64,000 nucleotides of DNA from a virus, in IMG/VR virus record IMGVR_UViG_3300027985_000286, positions 1 through 64,000 of that record. One strand, written 5' to 3'. The position numbers were made by a program, and so were the translations under genes. Of the stretch, positions 25,025-48,307 are shown one piece after another. Below the pieces are notes generated by a model that saw nothing but the letters and a program-made list of their open reading frames with translations, was not told where the DNA came from and made no database searches. The stretch's first letter is position 1; the number at the start of each line of letters is the position of its first letter.

Positions 25025-25684
25025 TTACCTGTGGTTGAGTACTGAAGGATATTCGAACCGGCAGTGGCTCTTAGGAGTTTCCCAAAACTCAGCAGCGTAC
25101 ACCTCAAAGACATGGTCTGCAACTGAGTACCCGAGGGAATCGCTATTACTTCTTTTCGAAGATCTCATAGTTCCCATGACGCTGCGTGCAACGTCAAGGA
25201 GAAACTTGGTAAGGTTCTCACTGGTAGGAACGAACGGAACGAAAACCATTCCTTCGAACTTCTCAGCGATTTCTTGTTTGAGAGGACCACCATCCAATAG
25301 CTCGGGGCTGATGCACTTGATATTGTGAGTTCTAGCAATATCGTTGGGGTGAGGTACAACCCATTCGTTGAACGGTTTAGGTACCTCGTGACTGAACAAA
25401 GGATCGTTGATGTCCATAATGAACTTGTGGTCCAGAACATCATCAATAAAGTCCTTCATAAACCCAAGGTGCTTGAAATCTGTTACCATGCCGGTATCGT
25501 CCACATCAGACGAACGCATGAAAATCTTCACACGACCTTGGTGTCCATGAATATGCCTGCACGCTAGACACGTTGAGTTACCAGATGTGAGCTTTGAGTC
25601 AAGCTTTTGAGTCCATACTCGATGGCCATAGCAAAAATCAAAACTCTTGTCGATAGAGAAAATCTGAGTATTCCGAGGCTGCAA
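25025..25684 (-). CDS. queD: 6-carboxy-5,6,7,8-tetrahydropterin synthase
   Basis: FCYGHR, CRHIHGH, GMVTDF, LDHKF, PTSENL, WETPKS. Confidence 0.88.
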   Translation of the reverse strand: MQPRNTQIFSIDKSFDFCYGHRVWTQKLDSKLTSGNSTCLACRHIHGHQGRVKIFMRSSDVDDTGMVTDFKHLGFMKDFIDDVLDHKFIMDINDPLFSHEVPKPFNEWVVPHPNDIARTHNIKCISPELLDGGPLKQEIAEKFEGMVFVPFVPTSENLTKFLLDVARSVMGTMRSSKRSNSDSLGYSVADHVFEVYAAEFWETPKSHCRFEYPSVLNHR

Positions 25685-36237: not shown

Positions 36238-36957
36238 TTATGATAGGCTTTCTATGACTTCTTTTAGTACCATGTGGACTGTTCTTTCCGCTACGTGGTA
36301 ATTATAGGTTTTGGATAGAACAGTAACTCTAGCACAATCTGTGCTGGAAGAAAACATATTGTCCAAGAGGTAAGCAAAGTCTCTCCTCTCTTCTGATAGG
36401 TTCAGCGCGTTATGCGGATTAGCAACCCAAACAAAACCGGCCTTTCCTCTTTTGATATCTTTCTCGTAGTGACCAATAAAGGCTTTGATCTGGTCAATAC
36501 TATCATCTACCAAGATTGGTGCATGTCCGTAAGGCGTGTTCTTTCTGATGAAGTCAACTTTGGTTTCGTACAGAGGAAGGCAATCAATTTCGTCTGGCGG
36601 CTTACACGAAACGGCACTAAATTGAGTTGAGCTGTCAAACGCAGACAGAACATCAACGATGTTATTTTCTCTTAACCTCTTGGTTTTAGTGCTTGACCCA
36701 CAAGAAGATAAGAGGTGCGTACCTTGAAGGTGTCTGGCTAGAACCCTGGAGTTCTCTAGAGTGTTAAGGTTTCCGAAAAATTCGCTTTCGTTGAACTTGC
36801 GGACAGACGCGTCGAATTCTTCTTCACTCAGACCAAATCTAGGTAGCTTGTTTGCGTGCCATCCTAAACACTTATGCTCCACTCCGTTCATATATTCGCG
36901 GATACCTTCTTTCCAGTCAAGGATGGTATCGTCTACATCAATGAATGTTTTGTGCAT
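36238..36957 (-). CDS. HAD-superfamily phosphatase / 5'-nucleotidase-like
   Basis: motif I DVDDT, motif II LSS, K, motif IV VDDS. Confidence 0.75.
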   Translation of the reverse strand: MHKTFIDVDDTILDWKEGIREYMNGVEHKCLGWHANKLPRFGLSEEEFDASVRKFNESEFFGNLNTLENSRVLARHLQGTHLLSSCGSSTKTKRLRENNIVDVLSAFDSSTQFSAVSCKPPDEIDCLPLYETKVDFIRKNTPYGHAPILVDDSIDQIKAFIGHYEKDIKRGKAGFVWVANPHNALNLSEERRDFAYLLDNMFSSSTDCARVTVLSKTYNYHVAERTVHMVLKEVIESLS

Positions 36958-36970
36958 CGTACTTTACCTA

Positions 36971-37765
36971 CTAGACTGTTGGCATTTCGGAAATTTCTAC
37001 GGGTGTGATGTTTTTGGTTACAAGGTTTTGCATGTTAAGGTCATCTGTATTCGGGTTCTTTTTCTGCAATAGGTCTGCAATCATTTCTGCAACCTTTTTT
37101 GATTTCAAGGGGTGAACTGCATATTCTTCAAAATCCAGATAAGATCCGGTTGCTTCTCTAAACGTGACAAACCTCTTTAAGCACTGCCAACATTCACCAC
37201 AAGGAACACCATTATGACTATGCCAGCAAGAAGATGACTTCTTGCTGATATCATAAATGCTTACGCCGTGATTCAAGGCCCATCTAACAGCATCAACCTT
37301 AGTCCATCCTCTGTCGGCTAGTGGGAAAACCACTCTGACCTGTTCTTCCTTGAATGGAGACAAGGTGTAGGTTGTAAGACCAGATACCACGTCTCTAAAG
37401 AAGGCGTTCTTATCTGTAGCGTCAATATTTACCTCATCAACCAAAGATCCTAGCCATATCTCATCTGGCAGGAACTGGCAAGCAGCAAGGGTAACAAACA
37501 CTAGGTTTCTCCCTGGAATGTAGATACTACCCTTTAAAGGCTCGCTCTTCTTGGCGACGCAGCCAATACCATTCTTACCCAACCAGTCTACGTTCATGCG
37601 AATAACGTTTAGAGGGAGAAGGGAAACTTCCTCTTTCTCCGATTCTGCTCCGTGCGCATAATAAACGCACACAACATCGTCATCTTTATTTTCTACCTCT
37701 GACAACCTCTTCATTATGAAACTGTCTAGACCACCAGAGTAAAGGATTACAATCTTTTTACGCAT
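36971..37765 (-). CDS. queC: 7-cyano-7-deazaguanine synthase-family ATPase
   Basis: SGGLDS PP-loop, YIPGRN, Zn motif C-x8-CGECWQC..R. Confidence 0.87.
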   Translation of the reverse strand: MRKKIVILYSGGLDSFIMKRLSEVENKDDDVVCVYYAHGAESEKEEVSLLPLNVIRMNVDWLGKNGIGCVAKKSEPLKGSIYIPGRNLVFVTLAACQFLPDEIWLGSLVDEVNIDATDKNAFFRDVVSGLTTYTLSPFKEEQVRVVFPLADRGWTKVDAVRWALNHGVSIYDISKKSSSCWHSHNGVPCGECWQCLKRFVTFREATGSYLDFEEYAVHPLKSKKVAEMIADLLQKKNPNTDDLNMQNLVTKNITPVEISEMPTV

Positions 37766-38150
37766 CGTCGTGTCTCACGTTTTCTTTTTCTACAAGGTTA
37801 TGATGAAGAAGGACGATATTAACCCAAGGGCAAGCCTTCTTTATGATTTCTGCCTGAATCTGGTCATCCTCAAAATGGATATCTATCCGTTTTCCAGAGT
37901 CCTTAAGCATAGTAATCACTTCAGCCTTATGAAGAGCAGAGCTCTCTCTAGTCTTTTGATTGAACGGAAGAGGATTGTAAAACACTCTGTTCGCAATGCC
38001 TAGCCCACCTAGAAATCTTTCTGTTTCGGGCATCTCTTCAAAAGACCTACCTGTGATGATAACGTCAGAGTGACATGGTCGGACCCCAGTCCGACCATGT
38101 CCCATAAAGATTACACCGTCAATATCGAATGAGTTCATACTAGAACTCAT
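37758..38150 (-). CDS. small cap-less HAD phosphatase
   Basis: FDIDGV, IITGRS, HK, HFEDD; overlaps both the MIPS gene and queC. Confidence 0.82.
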   Translation of the reverse strand: MSSSMNSFDIDGVIFMGHGRTGVRPCHSDVIITGRSFEEMPETERFLGGLGIANRVFYNPLPFNQKTRESSALHKAEVITMLKDSGKRIDIHFEDDQIQAEIIKKACPWVNIVLLHHNLVEKENVRHDDA

Positions 38151-39264
38151 TCGTGAGGTAGTAGGTAGGGATCTCTCTGGCAGCTAGGTACTCACATTCT
38201 GCCTTCGCTTCCGAGTACATCATTTGCATTGGAGGTGTCTTCTGAGTCCACGCGCTAGGTCCACGAAGAGAACCTTTAATGCCCAATTCCTGAGCCACCT
38301 TTAGATACCTGATAGCATCAATAACAACACCCGCAGAATTTTCACTATCTTGGACTGACAGCTTGATATCAACTGTAATCTCAGCCCCTCCGAAAGATTC
38401 AAGGATGACGTTGAAGTAAGCAACCTTATTGTCTTTCAGGTACGGAATAAAGGTACTTGGCCCAGCGAACAACGTATCCTTTTCCATAGGAATACCACGT
38501 ATGTCATTCTGAGCCCTAATGACATTCTCTTTGCTAATCTTCTTGGAAGACAGCCTGTTAGGGTTCATCATGTTGGCGAAGTCTGTATTTCCACCAACAT
38601 TCAGTTGCTGATGGAACTTTACCTTGCACCCTCTGTCAAAGGCGAGCTCCTGAATAACCTGAGACAAGATAGATGCACCAACTTGACTACGCATATCATC
38701 ACCAATAAGAGGAAGACCGGCATCAATAAACCTTTTCTCCCACTCAAGGTTAGACGCAATGAATACTGGAATACAGTTTAAGAAAGGAATACCTGCATCA
38801 ATAGCACTCTGCGCGTAGAACTCAGTACCAACCTGAGACCCCACAGGGAGATAGTTAATGAGCATCTGTGCACCACTGTCTCTGAGGGCTTGAGCTACAT
38901 CAACAGGCTCTTCCTTGGCAATTTTGAAATTGATTGTATCGTGGAAGTTCTCCATATGAAGTGAGACACCATCACAAACTCTACCCATTTGAACCGTACA
39001 CTTGTCATCAATCTGAGTATGAAACACGCGGCAACAGTTGGGCTCTTCGAACATTGCAACATGAAGAGGCTTACCAACCTTTCTTTCATCAACATCAAAA
39101 GCAGCAACTACCTCAATGTCTGTTGGTCCATAACCACCGATGTCTTTAAACATAATACCAGGAAGACTATCCTGATTATTGTGACGATAGTAGTTGATGC
39201 CCTGAATCAGGGCAGATGCGCAGTTACCAACTCCCGCGATAGCAACCTTAATTTTTTCAGACAT
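38140..39264 (-). CDS. ino1: myo-inositol-1-phosphate synthase (bacterial/archaeal type)
   Basis: KVAIAGVGNCASALIQG, AAFDVD..KVG, NYLPVGS, NCIPVFIAS, IGDD.RSQVGA, QLNVGGNTDF, SKKISK, DNKVAY, DSENSAGVVIDAIR. Confidence 0.95.
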   Translation of the reverse strand: MSEKIKVAIAGVGNCASALIQGINYYRHNNQDSLPGIMFKDIGGYGPTDIEVVAAFDVDERKVGKPLHVAMFEEPNCCRVFHTQIDDKCTVQMGRVCDGVSLHMENFHDTINFKIAKEEPVDVAQALRDSGAQMLINYLPVGSQVGTEFYAQSAIDAGIPFLNCIPVFIASNLEWEKRFIDAGLPLIGDDMRSQVGASILSQVIQELAFDRGCKVKFHQQLNVGGNTDFANMMNPNRLSSKKISKENVIRAQNDIRGIPMEKDTLFAGPSTFIPYLKDNKVAYFNVILESFGGAEITVDIKLSVQDSENSAGVVIDAIRYLKVAQELGIKGSLRGPSAWTQKTPPMQMMYSEAKAECEYLAAREIPTYYLTNEF

Positions 39265-39341
39265 GTCTGTTTCCTTTAGAGTTAAAGGGTGGAAAGGCCT
39301 AAGGAAAACACCCCAAAAGCGACGCCTTTATGTCAATCTAT

Positions 39342-39370
39342 ATAGTAACACTTTCAGAGATACTAGTCAA
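39342..39370 (-). promoter_or_regulatory. sigma70-type promoter driving ino1-HAD-queC-HAD-43
   Basis: TTGACT-17 bp-TACTAT with TG extended -10 on minus strand. Confidence 0.7.
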
Positions 39371-40691
39371 ACAAAGAGTCTAACGTTCCTCTTTGAGTTG
39401 TTATTTTTGATGCTTTAAACCCAACTCTTGTCAAGGTACTGCCGTTCTTTTCGTTTGTTATGACCAAATTGGTATTGAACCTGTTGTTGGATACGGTTCT
39501 ATAGTCGCCAACGTGACTAAAGCTATCACTTCGTCCTAAACTAGAAAAATAATCATCCAACCTTACTGTTTCTTGAACCGTTGCGAGACCGCCTCTCAGT
39601 GGTCTTGCAACTTTCTCTTGCATGACACCCTCTACAAACCTTAACCAGGTTTCGTCTACATCTCTGGAGTATGATACTGCCTGAGAGTTGTTATAAACTC
39701 TAGAAGAAGCCAGTAGCTGTTTGATTTTCTCTGTAACGCTACTCAATGACTCCAAGTGCGCCCATTTTTCGTGCATTAGCGTCCATGGCATCTCTTTTAG
39801 AACAACAACAGGGCAAGAAAAAGCCTCTTCAATCACACCGTAGCCGAAAGTCTCCATCTTAGCTGGATGGTAAGCCACTTTGGCCTTAGAAATGAAGTCA
39901 ACCTTAGCAGCCCCTGTTAAACTATGTCGAATCTCATACTCCTTAACTCCGTTATCTTCGAGAGACCTTCTGAACTTCTCAGCGCTGGAACCAGATGTCA
40001 TTACTAGAGCTTTGCACTTCAGTTCTTTCACAACTCTAATGAACTCTTCTGGATTTTTTCTATCCTGGTACGTTCCGATAAACAGCAACCCTTCTTTACT
40101 TGGATAGAGGTTCGCGTATTCTAAGGATGGTTCTGCTATGGGTAAAGGAAGGCACACCCCTTTTGATGTTGGTGGTATCAACTTTAGATTATCGTTTGAC
40201 TGACTTCCTATTACCACGTTCTTACTAAGAAGAGACAACAACCATTCTTGGTACGGTCTGTTGAACACTGACTTTTTAGCAAGTAAAACCGATTCCGGGT
40301 TATGGGTGTAGTACACTACTGGAACGTTCAGATCCAAAGATACAATTGGATCAAGAGCCTCTTCATCATTGACAATGATTAAGTCATACACTGATTCTCT
40401 AATAGCGTCAATCAAAGCGTTCCTAAAGTTTACCTGTCTCTCAAAGCAAAGTCCATCACTGAACATGAATATCTTCTTATGGTGGCTATAAGCCAACGGA
40501 TCTTTAGGGCTAACTACCTTGCACTCCTTTTCAACATCTGGGTGCAGTCTTCCTCTCATTAAGGGTGAGTCTACAACAATATCAACAACCCACCCATACT
40601 TCTTCGCCATAAGATGAAACCCCTTGATAAAGGTCCCAACACCACCATTAATAGACAAATATCGATTCGAAACGACCTGACACACTCGCAT
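39363..40691 (-). CDS. GT-B fold (GT4-like) glycosyltransferase
   Basis: N-terminal GGVGT loop, VVYYTH, LFIG....RKN, HPA..ETFGY...E (Ex7E-type motif); ends TLDSLFD. Confidence 0.85.
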   Translation of the reverse strand: MRVCQVVSNRYLSINGGVGTFIKGFHLMAKKYGWVVDIVVDSPLMRGRLHPDVEKECKVVSPKDPLAYSHHKKIFMFSDGLCFERQVNFRNALIDAIRESVYDLIIVNDEEALDPIVSLDLNVPVVYYTHNPESVLLAKKSVFNRPYQEWLLSLLSKNVVIGSQSNDNLKLIPPTSKGVCLPLPIAEPSLEYANLYPSKEGLLFIGTYQDRKNPEEFIRVVKELKCKALVMTSGSSAEKFRRSLEDNGVKEYEIRHSLTGAAKVDFISKAKVAYHPAKMETFGYGVIEEAFSCPVVVLKEMPWTLMHEKWAHLESLSSVTEKIKQLLASSRVYNNSQAVSYSRDVDETWLRFVEGVMQEKVARPLRGGLATVQETVRLDDYFSSLGRSDSFSHVGDYRTVSNNRFNTNLVITNEKNGSTLTRVGFKASKITTQRGTLDSLFD

Positions 40692-40699
40692 GGTAACTC

Positions 40700-41983
40700 C
40701 TAGTCAAAGAGATCATCCAGAGACGATACGTTTGCCGCTTTCGTTTCCAGCCTTTGACTGTGAACCTTAGGTCCAATAGTTTTTGACCACTTAATGAATT
40801 CGTTATAGTCAGTAACTTGCAACAAGGTAGATAGAATAGATTGCCCTTCTCTAGACAACCATTTCAATAGGGAAGACTCTTCCCTAAACAAGGAGTTCAC
40901 GTGGTAGGTGAAATTGGCTATACTAGCAAACGCAGCAGCAACCATGAACACATGATATTGTTCAACTCTGTCTTCAGAAGAAAAATAGTCCCAGCTCCTC
41001 TTTGAAGAGTTTGTTGTCAACGACTCAACCACATCGCTCAAAGAAAACCTAGCACCCACATCACCAAAGTACCTTATGATATCCCTATGGTATTCTTCTA
41101 TTACCTTAACGTTGGTTGTTCCATAGAGCTGAAGCTTACCTCTACTGTTTAGGTAAGACCCGTTACTGAGCTTCATGGTATGAGACGTTGAATCGTAAGA
41201 TAGGTGCGTGTTCTGGTTAAGGTAACCAGTTTGATACAAGATAGCAGAGGGGAAAAGCCTAGCGATGCTTCCAACACCCAAAAGGTGCACGTTGGCTTTG
41301 ATGTCTTCCTCACACGGGAGAACAGGTACAGATGCCGCCCTTTCAATAGCTTCAAGAAGACCGTTACCGATAGACGTACCAGCAATTGATACACCTGCAA
41401 TCTGACAGTGCATGTCTATTGGGACCTCTTTAAGAAGAACCTCAACCCAACGTTGAAACCAATAGATCCCATTACCCTGCACGATCATCATAGGCTTGGT
41501 TTTATAGCCATGGGTCCTAAAGTACTCAATCTGAGATGCGAGATTGTACCCTGACTTCTTAGCGTACGAGTCGAAGTTATCTTTATCAAATCTCTTGCTA
41601 TTCAGGTCATTAATGACTGACCGGTTGTTGACTACAACAGGGACCTCATCAAAAGACATTGCGACTGTTGAGTGCTTCCCTTGTTTTTCATAAACAGCCT
41701 GCCTAAGACTGTCAGTAATCATTTTTCCTAGAGTAACGACCTGTAGGCCTCCCGAATCTGCATGTACGCTAGAAACGCTCTTAAATCTGTCATACGCTGC
41801 ACCAAACTTCTTTTCAGTATGCGCGTTGAACAAAATTCCATAACTATGACCGTGCGCTCCTTGTATAGGAGCAAACACCTCTTTGTCAATCCTATCCAAT
41901 ACGCTGTTGTTCTGGTAGCTTCTACTTAGAGCGAACCGGGTATGACCCATTCCTGAAGCAATGTACTCTAGATTAAGTGGCAT
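40700..41983 (-). CDS. dpdA: TGT-family 7-deazaguanine DNA transglycosylase (DpdA/DpdA2-like)
   Basis: HADSGGLQ, MSFDE, IVQG, HLLGVGS, SYDSTS TGT-barrel motifs; next to folE; ends SLDDLFD. Confidence 0.85.
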   Translation of the reverse strand: MPLNLEYIASGMGHTRFALSRSYQNNSVLDRIDKEVFAPIQGAHGHSYGILFNAHTEKKFGAAYDRFKSVSSVHADSGGLQVVTLGKMITDSLRQAVYEKQGKHSTVAMSFDEVPVVVNNRSVINDLNSKRFDKDNFDSYAKKSGYNLASQIEYFRTHGYKTKPMMIVQGNGIYWFQRWVEVLLKEVPIDMHCQIAGVSIAGTSIGNGLLEAIERAASVPVLPCEEDIKANVHLLGVGSIARLFPSAILYQTGYLNQNTHLSYDSTSHTMKLSNGSYLNSRGKLQLYGTTNVKVIEEYHRDIIRYFGDVGARFSLSDVVESLTTNSSKRSWDYFSSEDRVEQYHVFMVAAAFASIANFTYHVNSLFREESSLLKWLSREGQSILSTLLQVTDYNEFIKWSKTIGPKVHSQRLETKAANVSSLDDLFD

Positions 41984-41985
41984 GT

Positions 41986-42663
41986 TTAGTTTCGGATTAG
42001 GCTAGTAAACTCTTTTCTAGTACTCTCATTTTCAATGAAAGCACCGTTCAAAGATGTTGAAGTCGTCTCCGATCCAGCATCTTCAATACCCCTCGAAATC
42101 ACGCAATAGTGCTTCGCAGTAATAGACACTGCCACATCATTCGTATCAAGGATGTACTTGAGCGCCTCTGCAATCTGCACAGTAAGCCTCTCTTGAACCT
42201 GAGGCCTGCGTGAGAAGTAGTCCACAATGCGGTTAATCTTGCTCAGGCCAATCACCTTAGCCTTAGGGATATAGGCTACAGTAGCCTTGCCATCAATAGT
42301 AACACCGTGATGCTCACACGCAGACATCACCCGAATGCCACGCTCTACGAGCATCTCATCGTACCCCATCTTATTCTCGATGGTGGTACACTTAGGGAAA
42401 TACTCTGGCTTCAAACCCCAGAACAGCTCGTTGACGAACATCTTAGCAATTCGGTTGGGTGTATCCCTCAGAGAGTCGTCTTGCAGGTCCATGCCTAAGA
42501 TAGACCAGATTGACTTCATGTGAGCACGAATATCTTTAATCTTTTCCTCGTCATCACCTCTTAGATGAGTCTCGATGACAGGGGTTTGCAACTTGAGCTT
42601 TAGGAGGTGCTCTTGAACTCTGAGACCCAGCACCTCATCACACTTAGACTTATCCGGCTTCAT
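41986..42663 (-). CDS. folE: GTP cyclohydrolase I
   Basis: DTPNRIAKM, SACEHH, IGLSKINRIV, RRPQVQERLT, H.C..SRG. Confidence 0.96.
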   Translation of the reverse strand: MKPDKSKCDEVLGLRVQEHLLKLKLQTPVIETHLRGDDEEKIKDIRAHMKSIWSILGMDLQDDSLRDTPNRIAKMFVNELFWGLKPEYFPKCTTIENKMGYDEMLVERGIRVMSACEHHGVTIDGKATVAYIPKAKVIGLSKINRIVDYFSRRPQVQERLTVQIAEALKYILDTNDVAVSITAKHYCVISRGIEDAGSETTSTSLNGAFIENESTRKEFTSLIRN

Positions 42664-42680
42664 TCGGTTTCCTTAAAGGT

Positions 42681-42715
42681 AAGAAAGGGTGGTGTAGGAG
42701 ACTCCTACACCACCC
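42681..42715 (-). terminator. intrinsic terminator immediately upstream of folE
   Basis: GGGTGGTGTAGGA-3 nt-TCCTACACCACCC (13-bp stem) then TTTCTT on minus strand. Confidence 0.75.
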
Positions 42716-42738
42716 AGCTTAGTTAACACCGGTGGGCA

Positions 42739-43257
42739 TCAGTAAGCCACACCATCTCGCATCTCATCCACAGTGTCCCGCACGTAGCTGGAGGCGAGGG
42801 CCTTGTTGCTGTTGAAGAGGTCCACAGCGGCCTTCTCGATGACCGCCTTCTCCGACTCCTTCACCTTCTCCATATCCGACCCAGCCTTCAGGAGGTCGGC
42901 GTCCATCATTTCCTTGACCATCCGGATGACGTCCCCCTTCTTGCTGGAAATCAGCGTGCGCTTCCGATACACGCTCTTGCCGTTACGATACTTGACCTCA
43001 CGGTCAATGTGCACCACGTTGCCGTCGCTCGGGGCCGGGGCCGGGGCCGGGGTGGTCACCGCCTCTTCGGGCTGGGCCGGGTCAACATCCACCAGCTTCA
43101 GGGCCGGCGCAGCCTGCGGGATGCCAGCCTTGGCCCACCGACGGGCGCTGGAGACCGAAACACTGTGCTTCGCGGCCGCAGCAGCCGGGCTCATACCGTT
43201 GGACATATCCGCGATCACCGCATTCTTCACCTTCATGTCAATTGCGTTCGAGTTCAT
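42739..43257 (-). CDS. HTH-containing early protein, GC-rich
   Basis: GMS...AAAKHSVS.SSARRW HTH, PA-rich linker; AAGGAG SD before ATG 43257. Confidence 0.7.
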   Translation of the reverse strand: MNSNAIDMKVKNAVIADMSNGMSPAAAAAKHSVSVSSARRWAKAGIPQAAPALKLVDVDPAQPEEAVTTPAPAPAPSDGNVVHIDREVKYRNGKSVYRKRTLISSKKGDVIRMVKEMMDADLLKAGSDMEKVKESEKAVIEKAAVDLFNSNKALASSYVRDTVDEMRDGVAY

Positions 43258-43328
43258 GTTGTTACTCCTTTCCATTGTCTAGTAGTGTTCTGGCCCTTGC
43301 CAGCGTGTTTTGTGTTTCCACAGTATGA

Positions 43329-43356
43329 ATAATACTGTCTTTTAGATATCTTGCAA
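43329..43356 (-). promoter_or_regulatory. sigma70-type early promoter
   Basis: TTGCAA-16 bp-TATTAT on minus strand. Confidence 0.6.
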
Positions 43357-43400
43357 GGCTTTTCTGCACAAGAGTTTCTTATGAGAATGATAAATTTTAC

Positions 43401-44282
43401 TTATGTCCCCCAGCTGTTCCCGAACAGGTCAATGTGAAGCCTGGGGCTGTACCGGTAGCCATACTTCATTGCAAGGTTAGCCACAGTGGTTGAATTCTTG
43501 ATGTAGTCTTCATAAGTACCACCAACAGGCATCAGGTACACCGGTACGCTAAACGGTAGTTTGGCATATTCCATGAACTCGCCAACCTCGAACACATCTT
43601 GTTCATCCTGAACAACGAACTTGAGAACTGGTTGTGCTCCGGATTCAAACAACGTATTGACCGCATCGTAAGACCATGCCTTCTCCCTACTCTCTCCAGA
43701 TGCTCTCATCTTCGGTGAGATTGACAGTGTGATGCAATCTAGGTCAATAAGGCTCCCTCCGGCGATTAGAGCACCGTTAACACACCAAAAGTCCGACGGC
43801 CACGCTTGCGTGCCATTCGTCTCAAACGTGATATGCTGAAGTCCGTTCTCACGACAGAGTATGTCAATCGTCTCTAACAGACCTTTAGCGTTCTTCTGAA
43901 GCAGAGGCTCCCCGCCTGTAATAACAAGGTGCGTGTTCTCGTCAAACTGCTCATCAAAGAACAGTCCCCCGTTCACCTCAACAATCTTATATGCTAACTC
44001 CTTAGGGGTCATCTCAGTGCTCATATGCTTGAAACGCTTATCCCAAGCAGCGTAGCTATCACACCCAGTCTTGACAAGAGGAAGATCTTTGATGCTACCA
44101 TATTGATAAAATAGAGCAGCTACGGAGTCACGTTCCTTGGACTTCTGACCTTCAGGCATGCCAAACCCTGCGCACTGAAGATTGCATCCAAAGAGGCGCA
44201 CAAACACCGAAGGAGTGCCTACATGCAGGCCCTCACCTTGAATAGACTTGAACACCTCAACAACAGTTAGATTGCTGCTCAT
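43401..44282 (-). CDS. queE: 7-carboxy-7-deazaguanine synthase (radical SAM)
   Basis: E.F.SIQGEG..VG.PSVFVRLFGCNL.C...CDS, ITGGEPLLQ, FETNGT, SISPK, LKFVV, SPRLH. Confidence 0.92.
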   Translation of the reverse strand: MSSNLTVVEVFKSIQGEGLHVGTPSVFVRLFGCNLQCAGFGMPEGQKSKERDSVAALFYQYGSIKDLPLVKTGCDSYAAWDKRFKHMSTEMTPKELAYKIVEVNGGLFFDEQFDENTHLVITGGEPLLQKNAKGLLETIDILCRENGLQHITFETNGTQAWPSDFWCVNGALIAGGSLIDLDCITLSISPKMRASGESREKAWSYDAVNTLFESGAQPVLKFVVQDEQDVFEVGEFMEYAKLPFSVPVYLMPVGGTYEDYIKNSTTVANLAMKYGYRYSPRLHIDLFGNSWGT

Positions 44283-44790
44283 CTTTCTTCTCCATATACT
44301 TTTCCATGAACTCTTCGTAGCGGATAGACATTGTAGCATGGTACTCACGAGGGTTCATATTACACTTTACTGATGGCTTGCTTGAGTTCGTCAACCCTGC
44401 CGATAGGGTGAAAACCTTCTGCCTACTATGACCTGCTCCCCTACCAGACCAGTACACTACTTCTATGAGTTGCGTCTTGTCTTTATTTAGAATCCTGAAG
44501 ATCTCAGAATCGTTAACTCTAAGGAGTGCAGTACACCTAGCCATCACTTCGATTTGTTTCTGCTTGGGTAAGCAAGACTGCTCTGTGGGATATACCTTGA
44601 TTGTTGAGCCGTCAACAAGGTTGAGGTAATCTGTAAGGCCACCAACAGGACAGTTGGTGTTAGCGTCAATGGTTACGCAGTAGTAACCTGTCTGCTTGTT
44701 TGATTCCTGAATGAATCCAATGCCATCGAAAGCATAGTACAGTTCTGGATATAGAGTTCGTTTCTGTCTAATAGCAACAACTCTTGTCAT
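44257..44790 (-). CDS. hypothetical protein
   Basis: GAGGAG SD; overlaps queE start. Confidence 0.6.
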   Translation of the reverse strand: MTRVVAIRQKRTLYPELYYAFDGIGFIQESNKQTGYYCVTIDANTNCPVGGLTDYLNLVDGSTIKVYPTEQSCLPKQKQIEVMARCTALLRVNDSEIFRILNKDKTQLIEVVYWSGRGAGHSRQKVFTLSAGLTNSSKPSVKCNMNPREYHATMSIRYEEFMEKYMEKKDEQQSNCC

Positions 44791-47602: not shown

Positions 47603-48307
47603 TTATACGTTGAATTCGCTGCTATCTGCAACAGCCATCACATAAACAATCGGCTGGTTTTTGTTGATAAAGAGCGCAATGAGAGAACCTTTACGCTTTG
47701 CGATCTTAACAGTATAGTCCCCACCAAGCATCTTGAGGTTGTCAGAGTCAAAGACAATCTTGAACACCTTATCAGACGAACATAGCTTAGTCTTGAATGA
47801 ATTGCCCTTGCTTCCTGTGTCCAACTTCACATCTAGCGCAGTAAATGAAATATCCGATCCGTCACCAACAAACGCAAGGTTAGGAAGCTTCAGTGTAGCC
47901 GACGCGCGATAAGCAGCAACAAGCTTATCGTTGCCCAAGTCAAACTCAACAAGAATCTCATCAGGTACCAGATCTCTATCGGAGAATCCAGTAATCATTC
48001 GCTCATCTGCCATGTGGTACTTAATGGCAAGCTCTCCCTTCTGGTCCTGAATTGACAGGAAATCGTCGTCGACGAACTCAATAAGAGGAGACTCGACCAA
48101 AGAAAGAACAGACAAGAGTTCCATAATGTCGTACACCACAAAGTTGCCCGGGAAGGCACCAACCTTTGCAGTGAGCATGAGGGTATTATCAGGGCTCTTA
48201 ACACGAAGAATATCAGAGTCCTTCTTAATCATCACGTTACGATGAATCGTGCCTGCATTTTTGAGAATATCAAACAGCTCTTTTGTTACCTTTACCTGAC
48301 TAGTCAT
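47603..48307 (-). CDS. 45: sliding clamp gp45
   Basis: ILKN...I, F.VYD..ELLSVLSL, ATLKLP.L, NLKML.GDY.V; synteny 45-44-62-regA. Confidence 0.88.
   Translation of the reverse strand: MTSQVKVTKELFDILKNAGTIHRNVMIKKDSDILRVKSPDNTLMLTAKVGAFPGNFVVYDIMELLSVLSLVESPLIEFVDDDFLSIQDQKGELAIKYHMADERMITGFSDRDLVPDEILVEFDLGNDKLVAAYRASATLKLPNLAFVGDGSDISFTALDVKLDTGSKGNSFKTKLCSSDKVFKIVFDSDNLKMLGGDYTVKIAKRKGSLIALFINKNQPIVYVMAVADSSEFNV

What the first reader, a model, noticed from the sequence alone, without database searches (positions are those of the whole stretch)
36238..44282. Candidate new DNA hypermodification: 7-deazaguanine pathway with embedded inositol synthase, glycosyltransferase and HAD phosphatases
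Seen: minus-strand order queE-(HTH insert)-folE-dpdA/TGT-like-GT-B glycosyltransferase-myo-inositol-1-phosphate synthase-HAD-queC-HAD-DNA polymerase, with tight or overlapping junctions; queD lies at 25025-25684. Known: FolE/QueD/QueE/QueC make CDG/preQ0, and DpdA exchanges it for G in phage DNA as an anti-restriction modification. MIPS cyclises glucose-6-P to inositol-1-P. Some GT4 enzymes (MshA) glycosylate inositol-1-P, and T4 glucosyltransferases are GT-B enzymes acting on DNA. No QueF, ArcS or Gat-QueC is seen in the window. Inference: MIPS, HAD and GT sit between dpdA and queC, so they probably belong to the pathway. The product may be a deazaguanine carrying an inositol (or inositol-phosphate) and/or sugar group, loosely analogous to glycosylated queuosine. 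I know of no described inositol-containing DNA base.
Basis: partly seen in the sequence, partly recalled or inferred. Interest (0 to 1): 0.96.

Follow-up and report, generated by a model that had tools for sequence, protein, structure and literature searches.

The report
Inositol and sugar genes in deazaguanine cluster
A T4-like phage has an inositol-making gene pair and a DNA-tethered sugar transferase inside the genes that put 7-deazaguanine into its DNA; both add-ons recur in other phage DNA-modification clusters, which points to an undescribed decorated DNA base that no one has yet shown chemically.

Summary
The gene order is real. On the minus strand lie QueE, a small unknown ORF, FolE, a DpdA2-type transglycosylase, a GT4 glycosyltransferase, inositol-3-phosphate synthase (MIPS), a 130-aa HAD phosphatase, a divergent QueC-like protein, an NT5C-like nucleotidase and DNA polymerase. 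QueD lies at 25025-25684.

- MIPS plus the small HAD is a mobile pair. In about 35 phage loci it sits inside three kinds of DNA-hypermodification cassette: TET/ADDT/kinase, hydroxymethylase/HMUDK, and deazaguanine.
- Sampling by QueC-like instead, about 25 of 38 close relatives have MIPS directly upstream, against 0 of 40 distant QueCs. HAD-QueC fusions exist.
- The GT belongs to a family of at least 288 IMG/VR relatives. QueE lies within 9 kb in 71 of the 80 examined, usually with no QueC and no MIPS.
- GT and DpdA both end in the acidic-hydrophobic tail found on this phage's gp55, a known clamp client.

Best reading: an inositol-bearing, probably glycosylated, 7-deazaguanine in DNA. The chemistry is inferred, not shown. 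MIPS-linked and unlinked QueC-likes barely differ, which weakens the ligase idea.

This scan has flagged the MIPS-HAD pattern before in at least eight other genomes. No paper in the searched library describes it.

The parts
43401..44348 (-). QueE-like radical-SAM 7-carboxy-7-deazaguanine (CDG) synthase; probable true start is the ATG at 44282
   Evidence: phrog_2076 5.6e-55; TIGR03365 4e-17, below cut-off
42739..43275 (-). 178-aa Ala/Pro-rich ORF of unknown function in a GC-rich stretch; not conserved in related clusters, so probably an inserted gene
   Evidence: HTH_23 below cut-off; no PHROG; unclustered; GC 0.507 against about 0.43 around it
42687..42715 (-). Terminator-like hairpin (13-bp stem, 8 GC pairs, T-rich tail) between the 178-aa ORF and FolE
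41986..42663 (-). GTP cyclohydrolase I (FolE)
   Evidence: PF01227 2.4e-58; NF006824 2e-90, above cut-off
40700..41983 (-). DpdA2-type DNA guanine transglycosylase, ending in ..SSLDDLFD (clamp-binding-type tail)
   Evidence: tblastn to nt-1 and VH7D DpdA2; invariant DSGGxQ; TGT/DpdA fold; tail
39363..40691 (-). GT-B (GT4-like) glycosyltransferase: catalytic body 1-360, disordered linker 361-437, C-terminal ..TLDSLFD tail
   Evidence: family context
38140..39264 (-). myo-inositol-3-phosphate synthase (MIPS/Ino1-like)
   Evidence: 1GR0 2e-86; TIGR03450 1.9e-100; phrog_33138 1e-161; conserved motifs
37758..38150 (-). 130-aa capless HAD phosphatase, the constant partner of phage MIPS; overlaps MIPS by 11 nt and QueC-like by 8 nt
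36971..37765 (-). Divergent QueC-like PP-loop ATPase: SGGLDS, PGRNLVF and a 4-Cys zinc site are kept, but the canonical ETDxSGYPDCR stretch is replaced
36238..36957 (-). 239-aa HAD-fold protein, probably an NT5C-type 5'(3')-deoxyribonucleotidase; not part of the conserved module
   Evidence: phrog_420; Atlas feature score 0.95 and TM 0.67 to NT5C-type clusters; unclustered
25025..25684 (-). QueD (6-carboxytetrahydropterin synthase), encoded 11 kb away
   Evidence: PF01242 5.8e-21; phrog_2389
47603..48307 (-). gp45-type sliding clamp, the presumed docking partner of the DpdA and GT tails (context)
   Evidence: phrog_223 1.7e-42

Best explanation
This is a phage 7-deazaguanine DNA-modification cluster to which two separate add-on modules have been joined. 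Together they most likely produce an undescribed, bulkier base.

Core (assigned by homology to characterised enzymes):
- FolE, QueD and QueE turn GTP into 7-carboxy-7-deazaguanine (CDG).
- The DpdA2-type transglycosylase swaps a deazaguanine base for guanine in double-stranded DNA.

Add-on 1 (inferred):
- MIPS cyclises host glucose-6-phosphate to inositol-3-phosphate.
- The 130-aa HAD removes the phosphate, either before or after coupling.
- The inositol is joined to the 7-substituent. The most economical route is through the QueC-like PP-loop enzyme. Canonical QueC adenylates the CDG carboxylate and lets ammonia attack; here an inositol hydroxyl could attack instead and give an ester.

Add-on 2 (inferred):
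- The GT4 enzyme is held on the sliding clamp by its C-terminal tail. It transfers a sugar from a host nucleotide-sugar to the modified base once that base is in DNA.
- In this phage the likely acceptor is an inositol hydroxyl.

The result would shield G positions from restriction and other DNA-directed defences.
For: 1. MIPS-HAD is a conserved pair.
- The 130-aa HAD occurs in exactly the 19 phage records that hold MIPS, always just downstream.
- It is present in 30 of 34 MIPS loci.

2. The pair lies inside DNA-modification cassettes of three chemistries.
- Tet_JBP - ADDT - MIPS - HAD - Ploopntkinase3, in about 20 loci including Caulobacter phage Cr30.
- TS-like hydroxymethylase and dCMP deaminase - MIPS - HAD - HMUDK - T4-bGT-like - C5 methylase.
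- FolE/QueE/DpdA with MIPS - HAD - QueC-like.
- On the MIPS tree the QueC context arises at least three times among ADDT-context rows.

3. An independent sample drawn by QueC-like gives the same link.
- About 25 of 38 close-clade loci have MIPS adjacent, in several gene orders: MIPS-HAD-QueC, MIPS-methyltransferase-QueC, MIPS-QueC-GT, MIPS-HAD-GT-QueC and QueC-MIPS.
- 0 of 40 distant QueC loci have it.

4. HAD-QueC fusion proteins exist.
- At least 35 representatives (50%-identity clusters) match end to end.
- Two of four fusion loci have MIPS directly upstream.

5. The GT family is tied to the deazaguanine pathway.
- Of 80 loci examined, 71 have QueE within 9 kb and 30 have a DpdA2-like gene, often adjacent. 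A complete 203-kb genome is among them.

6. The tails point to action on DNA.
- Of 527 ORFs in this genome only four end in L[DE]x[LIFMV][FLYM]: the gp55 homologue, DpdA, GT and one small ORF.
- The same kind of tail ends the DNA polymerase of Moby and L032, and many TET, ADDT and GT proteins of related cassettes.
- PMC2988020 states that such acidic-hydrophobic C-termini of gp43, gp55 and gp33 bind gp45.
- The GT model has a disordered 80-residue linker before the tail.

7. The catalytic motifs of MIPS and HAD are invariant.
Against: - No chemistry is shown. No tool can say what is attached to what.
- MIPS-linked and MIPS-unlinked QueC-likes differ consistently at only four positions (H38/I, F90/L, Q194/V, K197/R). 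They may therefore all do the ordinary QueC reaction, which leaves the coupling enzyme unidentified.
- An ester from a PP-loop enzyme has no precedent that I know of.
- 13 of 38 close QueC-like loci lack MIPS. 80 of 80 sampled GT-family loci lack MIPS. So neither partner needs inositol.
- One MIPS lineage (L034/L035) sits among unrelated genes without the HAD.
- Many of the loci are related T4-like phages, so counts of loci overstate the number of independent events.
- MIPS and QueC-like fall below NCBIfam equivalog cut-offs.
- This phage's own polymerase ends ..PPQSFF, a weaker version of the tail.
Confidence: 0.55

Rival explanations
1. Ordinary deazaguanine modification plus an unrelated metabolic module. 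The QueC-like is a normal preQ0 synthase and the DNA carries dPreQ0 or dADG. MIPS-HAD makes free myo-inositol for some other purpose, such as host lipid, solute or signalling metabolism. It merely sits in the plastic region near the replication genes.
For: - QueC-like keeps the PP-loop and zinc site.
- It hardly differs between MIPS-linked and unlinked loci.
- MIPS-HAD also occurs without any que genes.
- One MIPS lineage has no recognisable DNA-modification neighbours.
- The Ps15 paper treats MIPS as a bacteria-like acquisition (PMC9025141).
Against: - 31 of 34 MIPS loci have the pair within one or two genes of a DNA-modifying enzyme: ADDT, kinase/HMUDK or QueC-like.
- The pair has moved between cassette types at least three times and landed inside a DNA-modification cassette each time.
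- HAD-QueC fusions exist.
- MIPS/HAD/QueC overlap translationally here.
Confidence: 0.2
2. Two independent decorations. The GT glycosylates a CDG-level deazaguanine directly in DNA, as it presumably does in the many clusters without QueC or MIPS. Inositol is used elsewhere or on another base, so there is no inositol-sugar conjugate.
For: - The GT family occurs in 80 of 80 sampled loci without MIPS or QueC-like. Its usual neighbours are FolE/QueD/QueE, a second GT, an NAD-dependent sugar epimerase/dehydratase and a cytidylyltransferase-like gene.
- A complete genome has no QueC.
Against: - Here, and in L058 and L027/L069, the GT lies directly beside MIPS, HAD or QueC-like.
- If the QueC-like makes a nitrile or an amide, the usual deazaguanines offer no hydroxyl for a GT.
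- No pyrimidine-modification genes (ADDT) are present in this genome.
Confidence: 0.15
3. The MIPS-like enzyme makes a different cyclitol phosphate, for example a five-membered cyclitol like the Ari2-type enzymes of carbocyclic nucleoside pathways. In that case the appended or produced moiety is not myo-inositol.
For: The second-best solved relative is a five-membered-cyclitol-phosphate synthase (6K96, 1.2e-51). The protein is below the NCBIfam equivalog cut-off (336 against 638 bits).
Against: It is much closer to genuine Ino1 (1GR0: 294 against 179 bits, full length). The SKKxSK and DSxNSAG motifs are conserved.
Confidence: 0.05

Closest known systems
Phage 7-deazaguanine DNA modification (FolE-QueD-QueE-QueC plus DpdA/DpdA2; dPreQ0, dADG, dG+, dPreQ1, mdPreQ1, fdPreQ1, dDG, dCDG; PMC6884629, PMC10516641)
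   Same: FolE, QueD, QueE and a QueC-family protein are present. The DpdA2-type transglycosylase is related to the tested nt-1 and VH7D enzymes. The cluster lies among the replication genes of a large myovirus-type genome.
   Different: It adds MIPS, a dedicated HAD phosphatase and a GT4 glycosyltransferase. None of these is among the described tailoring enzymes (QueF, ArcS, Gat-QueC, DpdL, DpdM, DpdN). The QueC-like is very divergent (E 0.002 to the B. subtilis QueC structure). None of the eight described bases contains a cyclitol or a sugar.
Pyrimidine hypermodification by 5-hmdU DNA kinase plus amino-acid:DNA transferase (ADDT/aGPT-Pplase; Pfam PF18723, PF18724), and TET/JBP-associated cassettes
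   Same: The same MIPS-HAD pair (49-70% identical MIPS) sits between ADDT and a P-loop kinase in about 20 phage loci, including Caulobacter phage Cr30. The logic is the same: an activated base substituent is attacked by a small-molecule nucleophile. TET, ADDT and GT proteins there carry the same C-terminal tails.
   Different: This genome has no ADDT. No TET or HMUDK was seen within about 10 kb of the cluster; the rest of the genome was not searched for them. The target base here is guanine replaced by a deazaguanine, not a hydroxymethylpyrimidine.
Mycothiol start: Ino1 + MshA (GT4, acts on inositol-3-P) + MshA2 phosphatase. More generally, the GT4 'sugar-phosphate synthase plus HAD phosphatase' pairs (SPS/SPP, OtsA/OtsB, VldE/VldH)
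   Same: The same three enzyme types are present. MshA, SPS, OtsA and VldE are the top structural matches of the GT.
   Different: The GT carries a clamp-binding-type tail and a long disordered linker. Its family usually occurs without MIPS, next to QueE and DpdA2. Those same PDB entries are also the generic matches reported for known DNA arabinosyltransferases (PMC13326640), so they do not identify the acceptor.
T4 glucosyl-hydroxymethylcytosine and the arabinosyl or other glycosyl pyrimidines of RB69, DLP3 and TET-type phages (PMC13326640; bioRxiv 10.1101/2023.12.21.572611)
   Same: A GT-B enzyme decorates a modified base in a T4-like phage after the base is in DNA. The donor is probably a host nucleotide-sugar.
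   Different: The acceptor would be on a purine analogue (7-deazaguanine), for which no DNA glycosylation is described in the library searched.

Membership tests
Phage 7-deazaguanine DNA-modification system | Genes for the preQ0/CDG pathway (FolE, QueD, QueE, QueC-family) | tested here: met
   FolE is above its curated cut-off. QueD and QueC-like are above Pfam cut-offs. QueE matches phrog_2076 at 5.6e-55.
Phage 7-deazaguanine DNA-modification system | A DpdA-family transglycosylase encoded with the pathway | tested here: met
   tblastn to tested DpdA2 proteins; invariant DSGGxQ; TGT/DpdA fold.
Phage 7-deazaguanine DNA-modification system | Deazaguanine nucleosides present in virion DNA | not testable with these tools
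   Needs LC-MS/MS of DNA. This phage is an uncultured IMG/VR contig.
DpdA2 subfamily | Sequence kinship with Vibrio phage nt-1 and VH7D DpdA2 | tested here: met
   29-31% identity over 96% of the query, E about 1e-42 to 1e-44. Closest relatives are in BUCT-ZZ01, ACP17 and pf16 (32-36%).
myo-inositol-3-phosphate synthase (EC 5.5.1.4) | Full-length similarity to a characterised Ino1, with conserved NAD-binding and catalytic motifs | tested here: met
   1GR0 2e-86 over residues 2-358. GxGNCAS, SKKxSK and DSxNSAG are conserved across 25 phage sequences.
myo-inositol-3-phosphate synthase (EC 5.5.1.4) | Score above the NCBIfam equivalog cut-off (TIGR03450) | tested here: not met
   336.5 bits against a 638 cut-off. 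It is a divergent member, so substrate identity is inferred.
HAD phosphatase | Motifs I-IV (DxD, T/S, K, DD) | tested here: met
   D9, D11, T33, K75 and D95-D96 are invariant or nearly so in 23 sequences. The substrate cannot be tested.
QueC (7-cyano-7-deazaguanine synthase, EC 6.3.4.20) | PP-loop SGGxDS and the 4-Cys zinc site | tested here: met
   SGGLDS; C180, C189, C192 and C195 are invariant.
QueC (7-cyano-7-deazaguanine synthase, EC 6.3.4.20) | Equivalog-level similarity, and the central ETDxSGYPDC motif of the two solved QueCs | tested here: not met
   TIGR00364 36.6 bits against a 150.3 cut-off. 3BL5 only E 0.002, and the aligned stretch reads DEvNidATDKNaFFR. It is therefore filed as QueC-like, not as QueC.
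GT-B / GT4 glycosyltransferase | Two-Rossmann GT-B fold | tested here: met
   Model pLDDT is high over residues 1-360. Foldseek probability is 1.00 to SPS, MshA, OtsA, BshA and PimA.
GT-B / GT4 glycosyltransferase | Pfam gathering score for Glycos_transf_1 | tested here: not met
   22.7 bits against a 26.4 cut-off. Some family members carry PF00534 in precomputed annotations.
T4-type sliding-clamp clients | Acidic-hydrophobic C-terminal peptide after a flexible linker | tested here: met
   ..TLDSLFD and ..SLDDLFD. Only 4 of 527 ORFs have such an end, one of them gp55. The linker is disordered. The motif is described in PMC2988020. Binding itself was not tested.
ADDT/5-HMUDK pyrimidine hypermodification | ADDT (PF18724) encoded in the genome | tested here: not met
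   No match in the 149-kb record.

The most novel reading that the evidence does not exclude
Phage DNA in which guanine is replaced by a 7-deazaguanine carrying a cyclitol (myo-inositol) that is further glycosylated on the DNA by a clamp-tethered GT4 enzyme. This would be the first cyclitol-containing nucleobase and the first glycosylated purine analogue in DNA. More broadly, inositol would be a shared building block that phages plug into three unrelated base-modification chemistries.
Probability: 0.4. Interest if true: 0.95.

Novelty: new variant of a known kind. Interest (0 to 1): 0.85.

Why it matters
Known 7-deazaguanine DNA bases carry only small groups: nitrile, amide, amidine, (methyl/formyl)aminomethyl, carboxyl or hydrogen. 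A cyclitol- and sugar-bearing version would be a new class of DNA hypermodification. It would bear on restriction, CRISPR and glycosylase-based defences, on sequencing and enzymatic handling of phage DNA, and on enzyme discovery: a PP-loop ligase or another enzyme that couples a polyol to a base, and a DNA-directed GT acting on a purine analogue.

It is directly testable, because cultured phages carry parts of the system:
- Menderavirus phages have MIPS-HAD-QueC-DpdA.
- Cr30 has MIPS-HAD with ADDT.
- BUCT-ZZ01 has GT-DpdA without MIPS.

Tried and rejected
- Megablast of the 8-kb region against 50,697 phage records found no match.
- Single-sequence IMG/VR scans with QueC-like and GT found 3 and 0 loci. 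Alignment-based scans were needed.
- A search for fused forms of the 130-aa HAD among longer proteins found none, which is weak evidence.
- phmmer of DpdA against PDB sequences found nothing. A fold search was needed.
- I looked for residues separating MIPS-linked from unlinked QueC-likes as a sign of a new specificity. Only four positions differ, so this does not support a specialised ligase.
- Promoter-like sites are not above the shuffled expectation (13 against 16.6).
- No Rfam family, such as a preQ1 riboswitch, was found.
- The weak QueF hit lies inside FolE and reflects the shared fold.
- No sugar-nucleotide genes were found in the phage's own genome. PF01370 and PF00483 are absent. The PF01467 hit at 118959-119162 was not followed and is probably NadR-type.
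- hhalign of the 282-aa 'c29' protein against the DpdA2 alignment was inconclusive (probability 25%).
- Ten literature searches found no paper linking inositol to phage DNA modification.

Full report
**What is there**

The window belongs to a 149-kb IMG/VR virus record, estimated 87% complete. It is a T4-like phage. The region is flanked by the clamp loader, regA, sliding clamp, DNA polymerase, UvsX and gp41.

On the minus strand, transcribed from high to low coordinates, lie:
- QueE (43401-44348, probably starting at 44282)
- a 178-aa ORF of unknown function
- a strong terminator-like hairpin (42715-42687)
- FolE
- a 427-aa transglycosylase
- a 442-aa glycosyltransferase
- MIPS
- a 130-aa HAD
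- a 264-aa QueC-like protein
- a 239-aa HAD-fold protein
- the DNA polymerase

These assignments rest. QueD is at 25025-25684. MIPS, HAD and QueC-like overlap by 11 and 8 nt. FolE, DpdA and GT are 2 and 8 nt apart. Megablast finds no close relative among 50,697 phage records.

**The uncertain identities, checked**

- The 427-aa protein has no Pfam or PDB sequence hit. It is 29-31% identical over 96% of its length to the DpdA2 proteins of Vibrio phages nt-1 and VH7D, which were shown to insert preQ0 or preQ1 into DNA (PMC10516641). The TGT signature DSGGxQ is invariant in 26 relatives. Its model matches only TGT and DpdA structures.
- The GT scores below Pfam cut-offs. Its model is a GT-B fold over residues 1-360, closest to GT4 retaining enzymes. 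It is followed by about 80 disordered residues and a short terminal helix.
- MIPS aligns end to end with M. tuberculosis Ino1 (2e-86) and keeps the conserved motifs.
- The 130-aa HAD keeps all four HAD motifs.
- The QueC-like keeps the PP-loop and zinc site. It is very far from the solved QueCs (E 0.002), and its central motif is replaced.
- The 239-aa protein resembles NT5C-type deoxyribonucleotidases. It is unique to this locus, so I do not count it as part of the module.

**Does MIPS belong to DNA modification?**

The opposite is found.

- In cultured Stenotrophomonas Menderavirus phages the order is FolE - MIPS - 123-aa HAD - QueC-like - DpdA - QueE. MIPS is 61% identical, HAD 50% and QueC-like 46%, but DpdA only 29%.
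- The small HAD occurs in exactly the 19 phage records that hold MIPS.
- An IMG/VR scan seeded with MIPS gave 32 loci. ORF clustering and Pfam sort them into three contexts:
  - About 20 loci, including Caulobacter phage Cr30, read Tet_JBP dioxygenase - (GT-B) - ADDT - MIPS - HAD - P-loop nucleotide kinase 3.
  - Three loci read TS-like hydroxymethylase - dCMP deaminase - MIPS - HAD - HMUDK - T4-bGT-like - C5 methylase.
  - Eight loci carry FolE/QueE/DpdA with MIPS - HAD - QueC-like.
- Only L034/L035 (one lineage) and a 4-kb fragment show no such neighbours.
- On a MIPS tree the QueC context appears at least three separate times among ADDT-context rows. The pair has therefore moved between cassette types and landed inside a DNA-modification cassette each time.

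**Independent sampling by the QueC-like gene**

The QueC-like family has more than 300 metagenomic relatives. An alignment-based IMG/VR scan gave 78 loci.

- Among 38 close relatives, about 25 have MIPS directly adjacent. None of the 40 distant QueC loci does.
- The gene orders vary: MIPS-HAD-QueC, MIPS-methyltransferase-QueC, MIPS-QueC-GT, MIPS-HAD-GT-QueC and, in another QueC subgroup, QueC-MIPS.
- A HAD-QueC fusion follows MIPS in L038 and L125. The fusion is a real family, with at least 35 representatives at the 50%-identity level matching end to end.
- The 13 close relatives without MIPS have SAM methyltransferases, or a PRTase with a kinase, in the same upstream slot. This slot looks like a place where tailoring genes are exchanged.

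**The GT is a second, separate add-on**

- Its family has at least 288 relatives in IMG/VR.
- In the best 80 loci, 71 have QueE within 9 kb, 56 QueD, 48 FolE, 42 a second GT and 30 a DpdA2-like gene, which is often adjacent. None has MIPS or a QueC-like gene.
- One complete 203-kb genome has neither QueC nor MIPS.
- Typical neighbours are an NAD-dependent sugar epimerase/dehydratase and a cytidylyltransferase-like gene. Synechococcus phage BUCT-ZZ01 is a cultured example.
- Only this window, L058 and L027/L069 combine the GT with MIPS and QueC-like.

**Where the enzymes act**

- GT ends ..TLDSLFD and DpdA ends ..SLDDLFD.
- In the whole genome only 4 of 527 ORFs end this way. One of them is the gp55 late sigma factor.
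- The same kind of tail ends the DNA polymerase of Moby and L032, DpdA homologues, and many TET, ADDT and GT proteins of the other cassettes. It is absent from MIPS, HAD and QueC-like.
- Nearly all of the 40 GT-family C-termini printed end in ..LFEGL..LFEFI or similar.
- T4 gp43, gp55 and gp33 bind the gp45 clamp through such acidic-hydrophobic C-termini on flexible linkers (PMC2988020).
- I infer that DpdA and GT work on DNA at the clamp, and that MIPS, HAD and QueC-like work on small molecules.

**Proposed mechanism**

By homology: FolE, QueD and QueE make CDG, MIPS makes inositol-3-phosphate, the HAD is a phosphatase, and DpdA2 exchanges guanine in DNA.

Inferred: inositol becomes part of the 7-substituent. 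The most economical route is the QueC-like enzyme adenylating the CDG carboxylate and an inositol hydroxyl attacking in place of ammonia. The clamp-tethered GT then adds a sugar to the base in DNA.

Weak points:
- MIPS-linked and unlinked QueC-likes differ at only four conserved positions.
- Neither QueC-like nor GT requires MIPS in other phages.
- The loci are phylogenetically related, so the counts overstate independence.

I put 0.55 on inositol, sugar or both ending up on the deazaguanine base. I put less on the exact ester route.

**Novelty**

Ten full-text searches found no paper linking inositol to phage DNA modification. The Ps15 paper lists MIPS only as a bacteria-like gene. The deazaguanine papers list no cyclitol or sugar derivative.

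Earlier follow-ups in this scan reached the same MIPS-HAD conclusion on at least eight other genomes. Those are unchecked AI notes and I do not count them as independent evidence.

What this window adds is the GT module, its large family context without QueC, and the combination of both add-ons in one cluster.

Noticed in passing
L202-L281 (IMG/VR); L004 = Synechococcus phage BUCT-ZZ01 ON615601 59509-78840: A large family of phage clusters reads FolE-QueD-QueE + GT48 + DpdA2 + a second GT, often with an NAD-dependent sugar epimerase/dehydratase and a cytidylyltransferase-like gene, but with no QueC. One is a complete 203-kb genome. This is a candidate glycosylated CDG-level deazaguanine in its own right.
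   Followed up: partly
window 42739-43275 and 42687-42715: A 178-aa Ala/Pro-rich ORF with only a sub-threshold HTH hit lies in a GC-rich stretch (0.507 against about 0.43). It is followed by a 13-bp-stem terminator-like hairpin and interrupts QueE-FolE. Related clusters have no counterpart.
   Followed up: partly
window 36238-36957: A 239-aa HAD-fold protein just upstream of the DNA polymerase resembles NT5C-type 5'(3')-deoxyribonucleotidases. It possibly adjusts the nucleotide pool.
   Followed up: partly
L008, L017, L022, L023, L026, L032, L039 (C-termini listed): TET/JBP dioxygenases, ADDT transferases and GT-B enzymes of the pyrimidine-type cassettes also end in [ST]L[DE]xFF-type tails like the phage DNA polymerases. 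Clamp tethering may be general for post-replicative DNA-modifying enzymes in T4-like phages.
   Followed up: partly
L059:6014-7993, L072:7188-7739, L077:7291-8001, L047:7401-7997, L063:7387-8010: In QueC-like loci the slot just upstream of QueC-like holds SAM methyltransferases, with or without MIPS, or a PRTase-like gene plus an APS-kinase-like kinase. This suggests further undescribed deazaguanine tailoring.
   Followed up: partly
They might salvage the guanine released by DpdA or make a deazaguanine nucleotide.
   Followed up: no
L034:9995-11134 (117-kb contig) and L035: A MIPS (54% identical) has no HAD partner and sits on the opposite strand among unknown genes next to a 1637-aa ORF. It is the one clear exception to the DNA-modification context.
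   Followed up: partly
L127:7001-8886 (273-kb IMG/VR contig): A jumbo-phage-sized contig has QueC-like directly followed by MIPS (the reverse order), with a 282-aa 'c29' protein that shares the HxLG and DSTS motifs with DpdA2 (hhalign probability only 25%).
   Followed up: partly
G000 118959-119162: A CTP_transf_like hit lies inside a 354-aa ORF elsewhere in the same phage. It is probably a NadR-type NMN adenylyltransferase.
   Followed up: no
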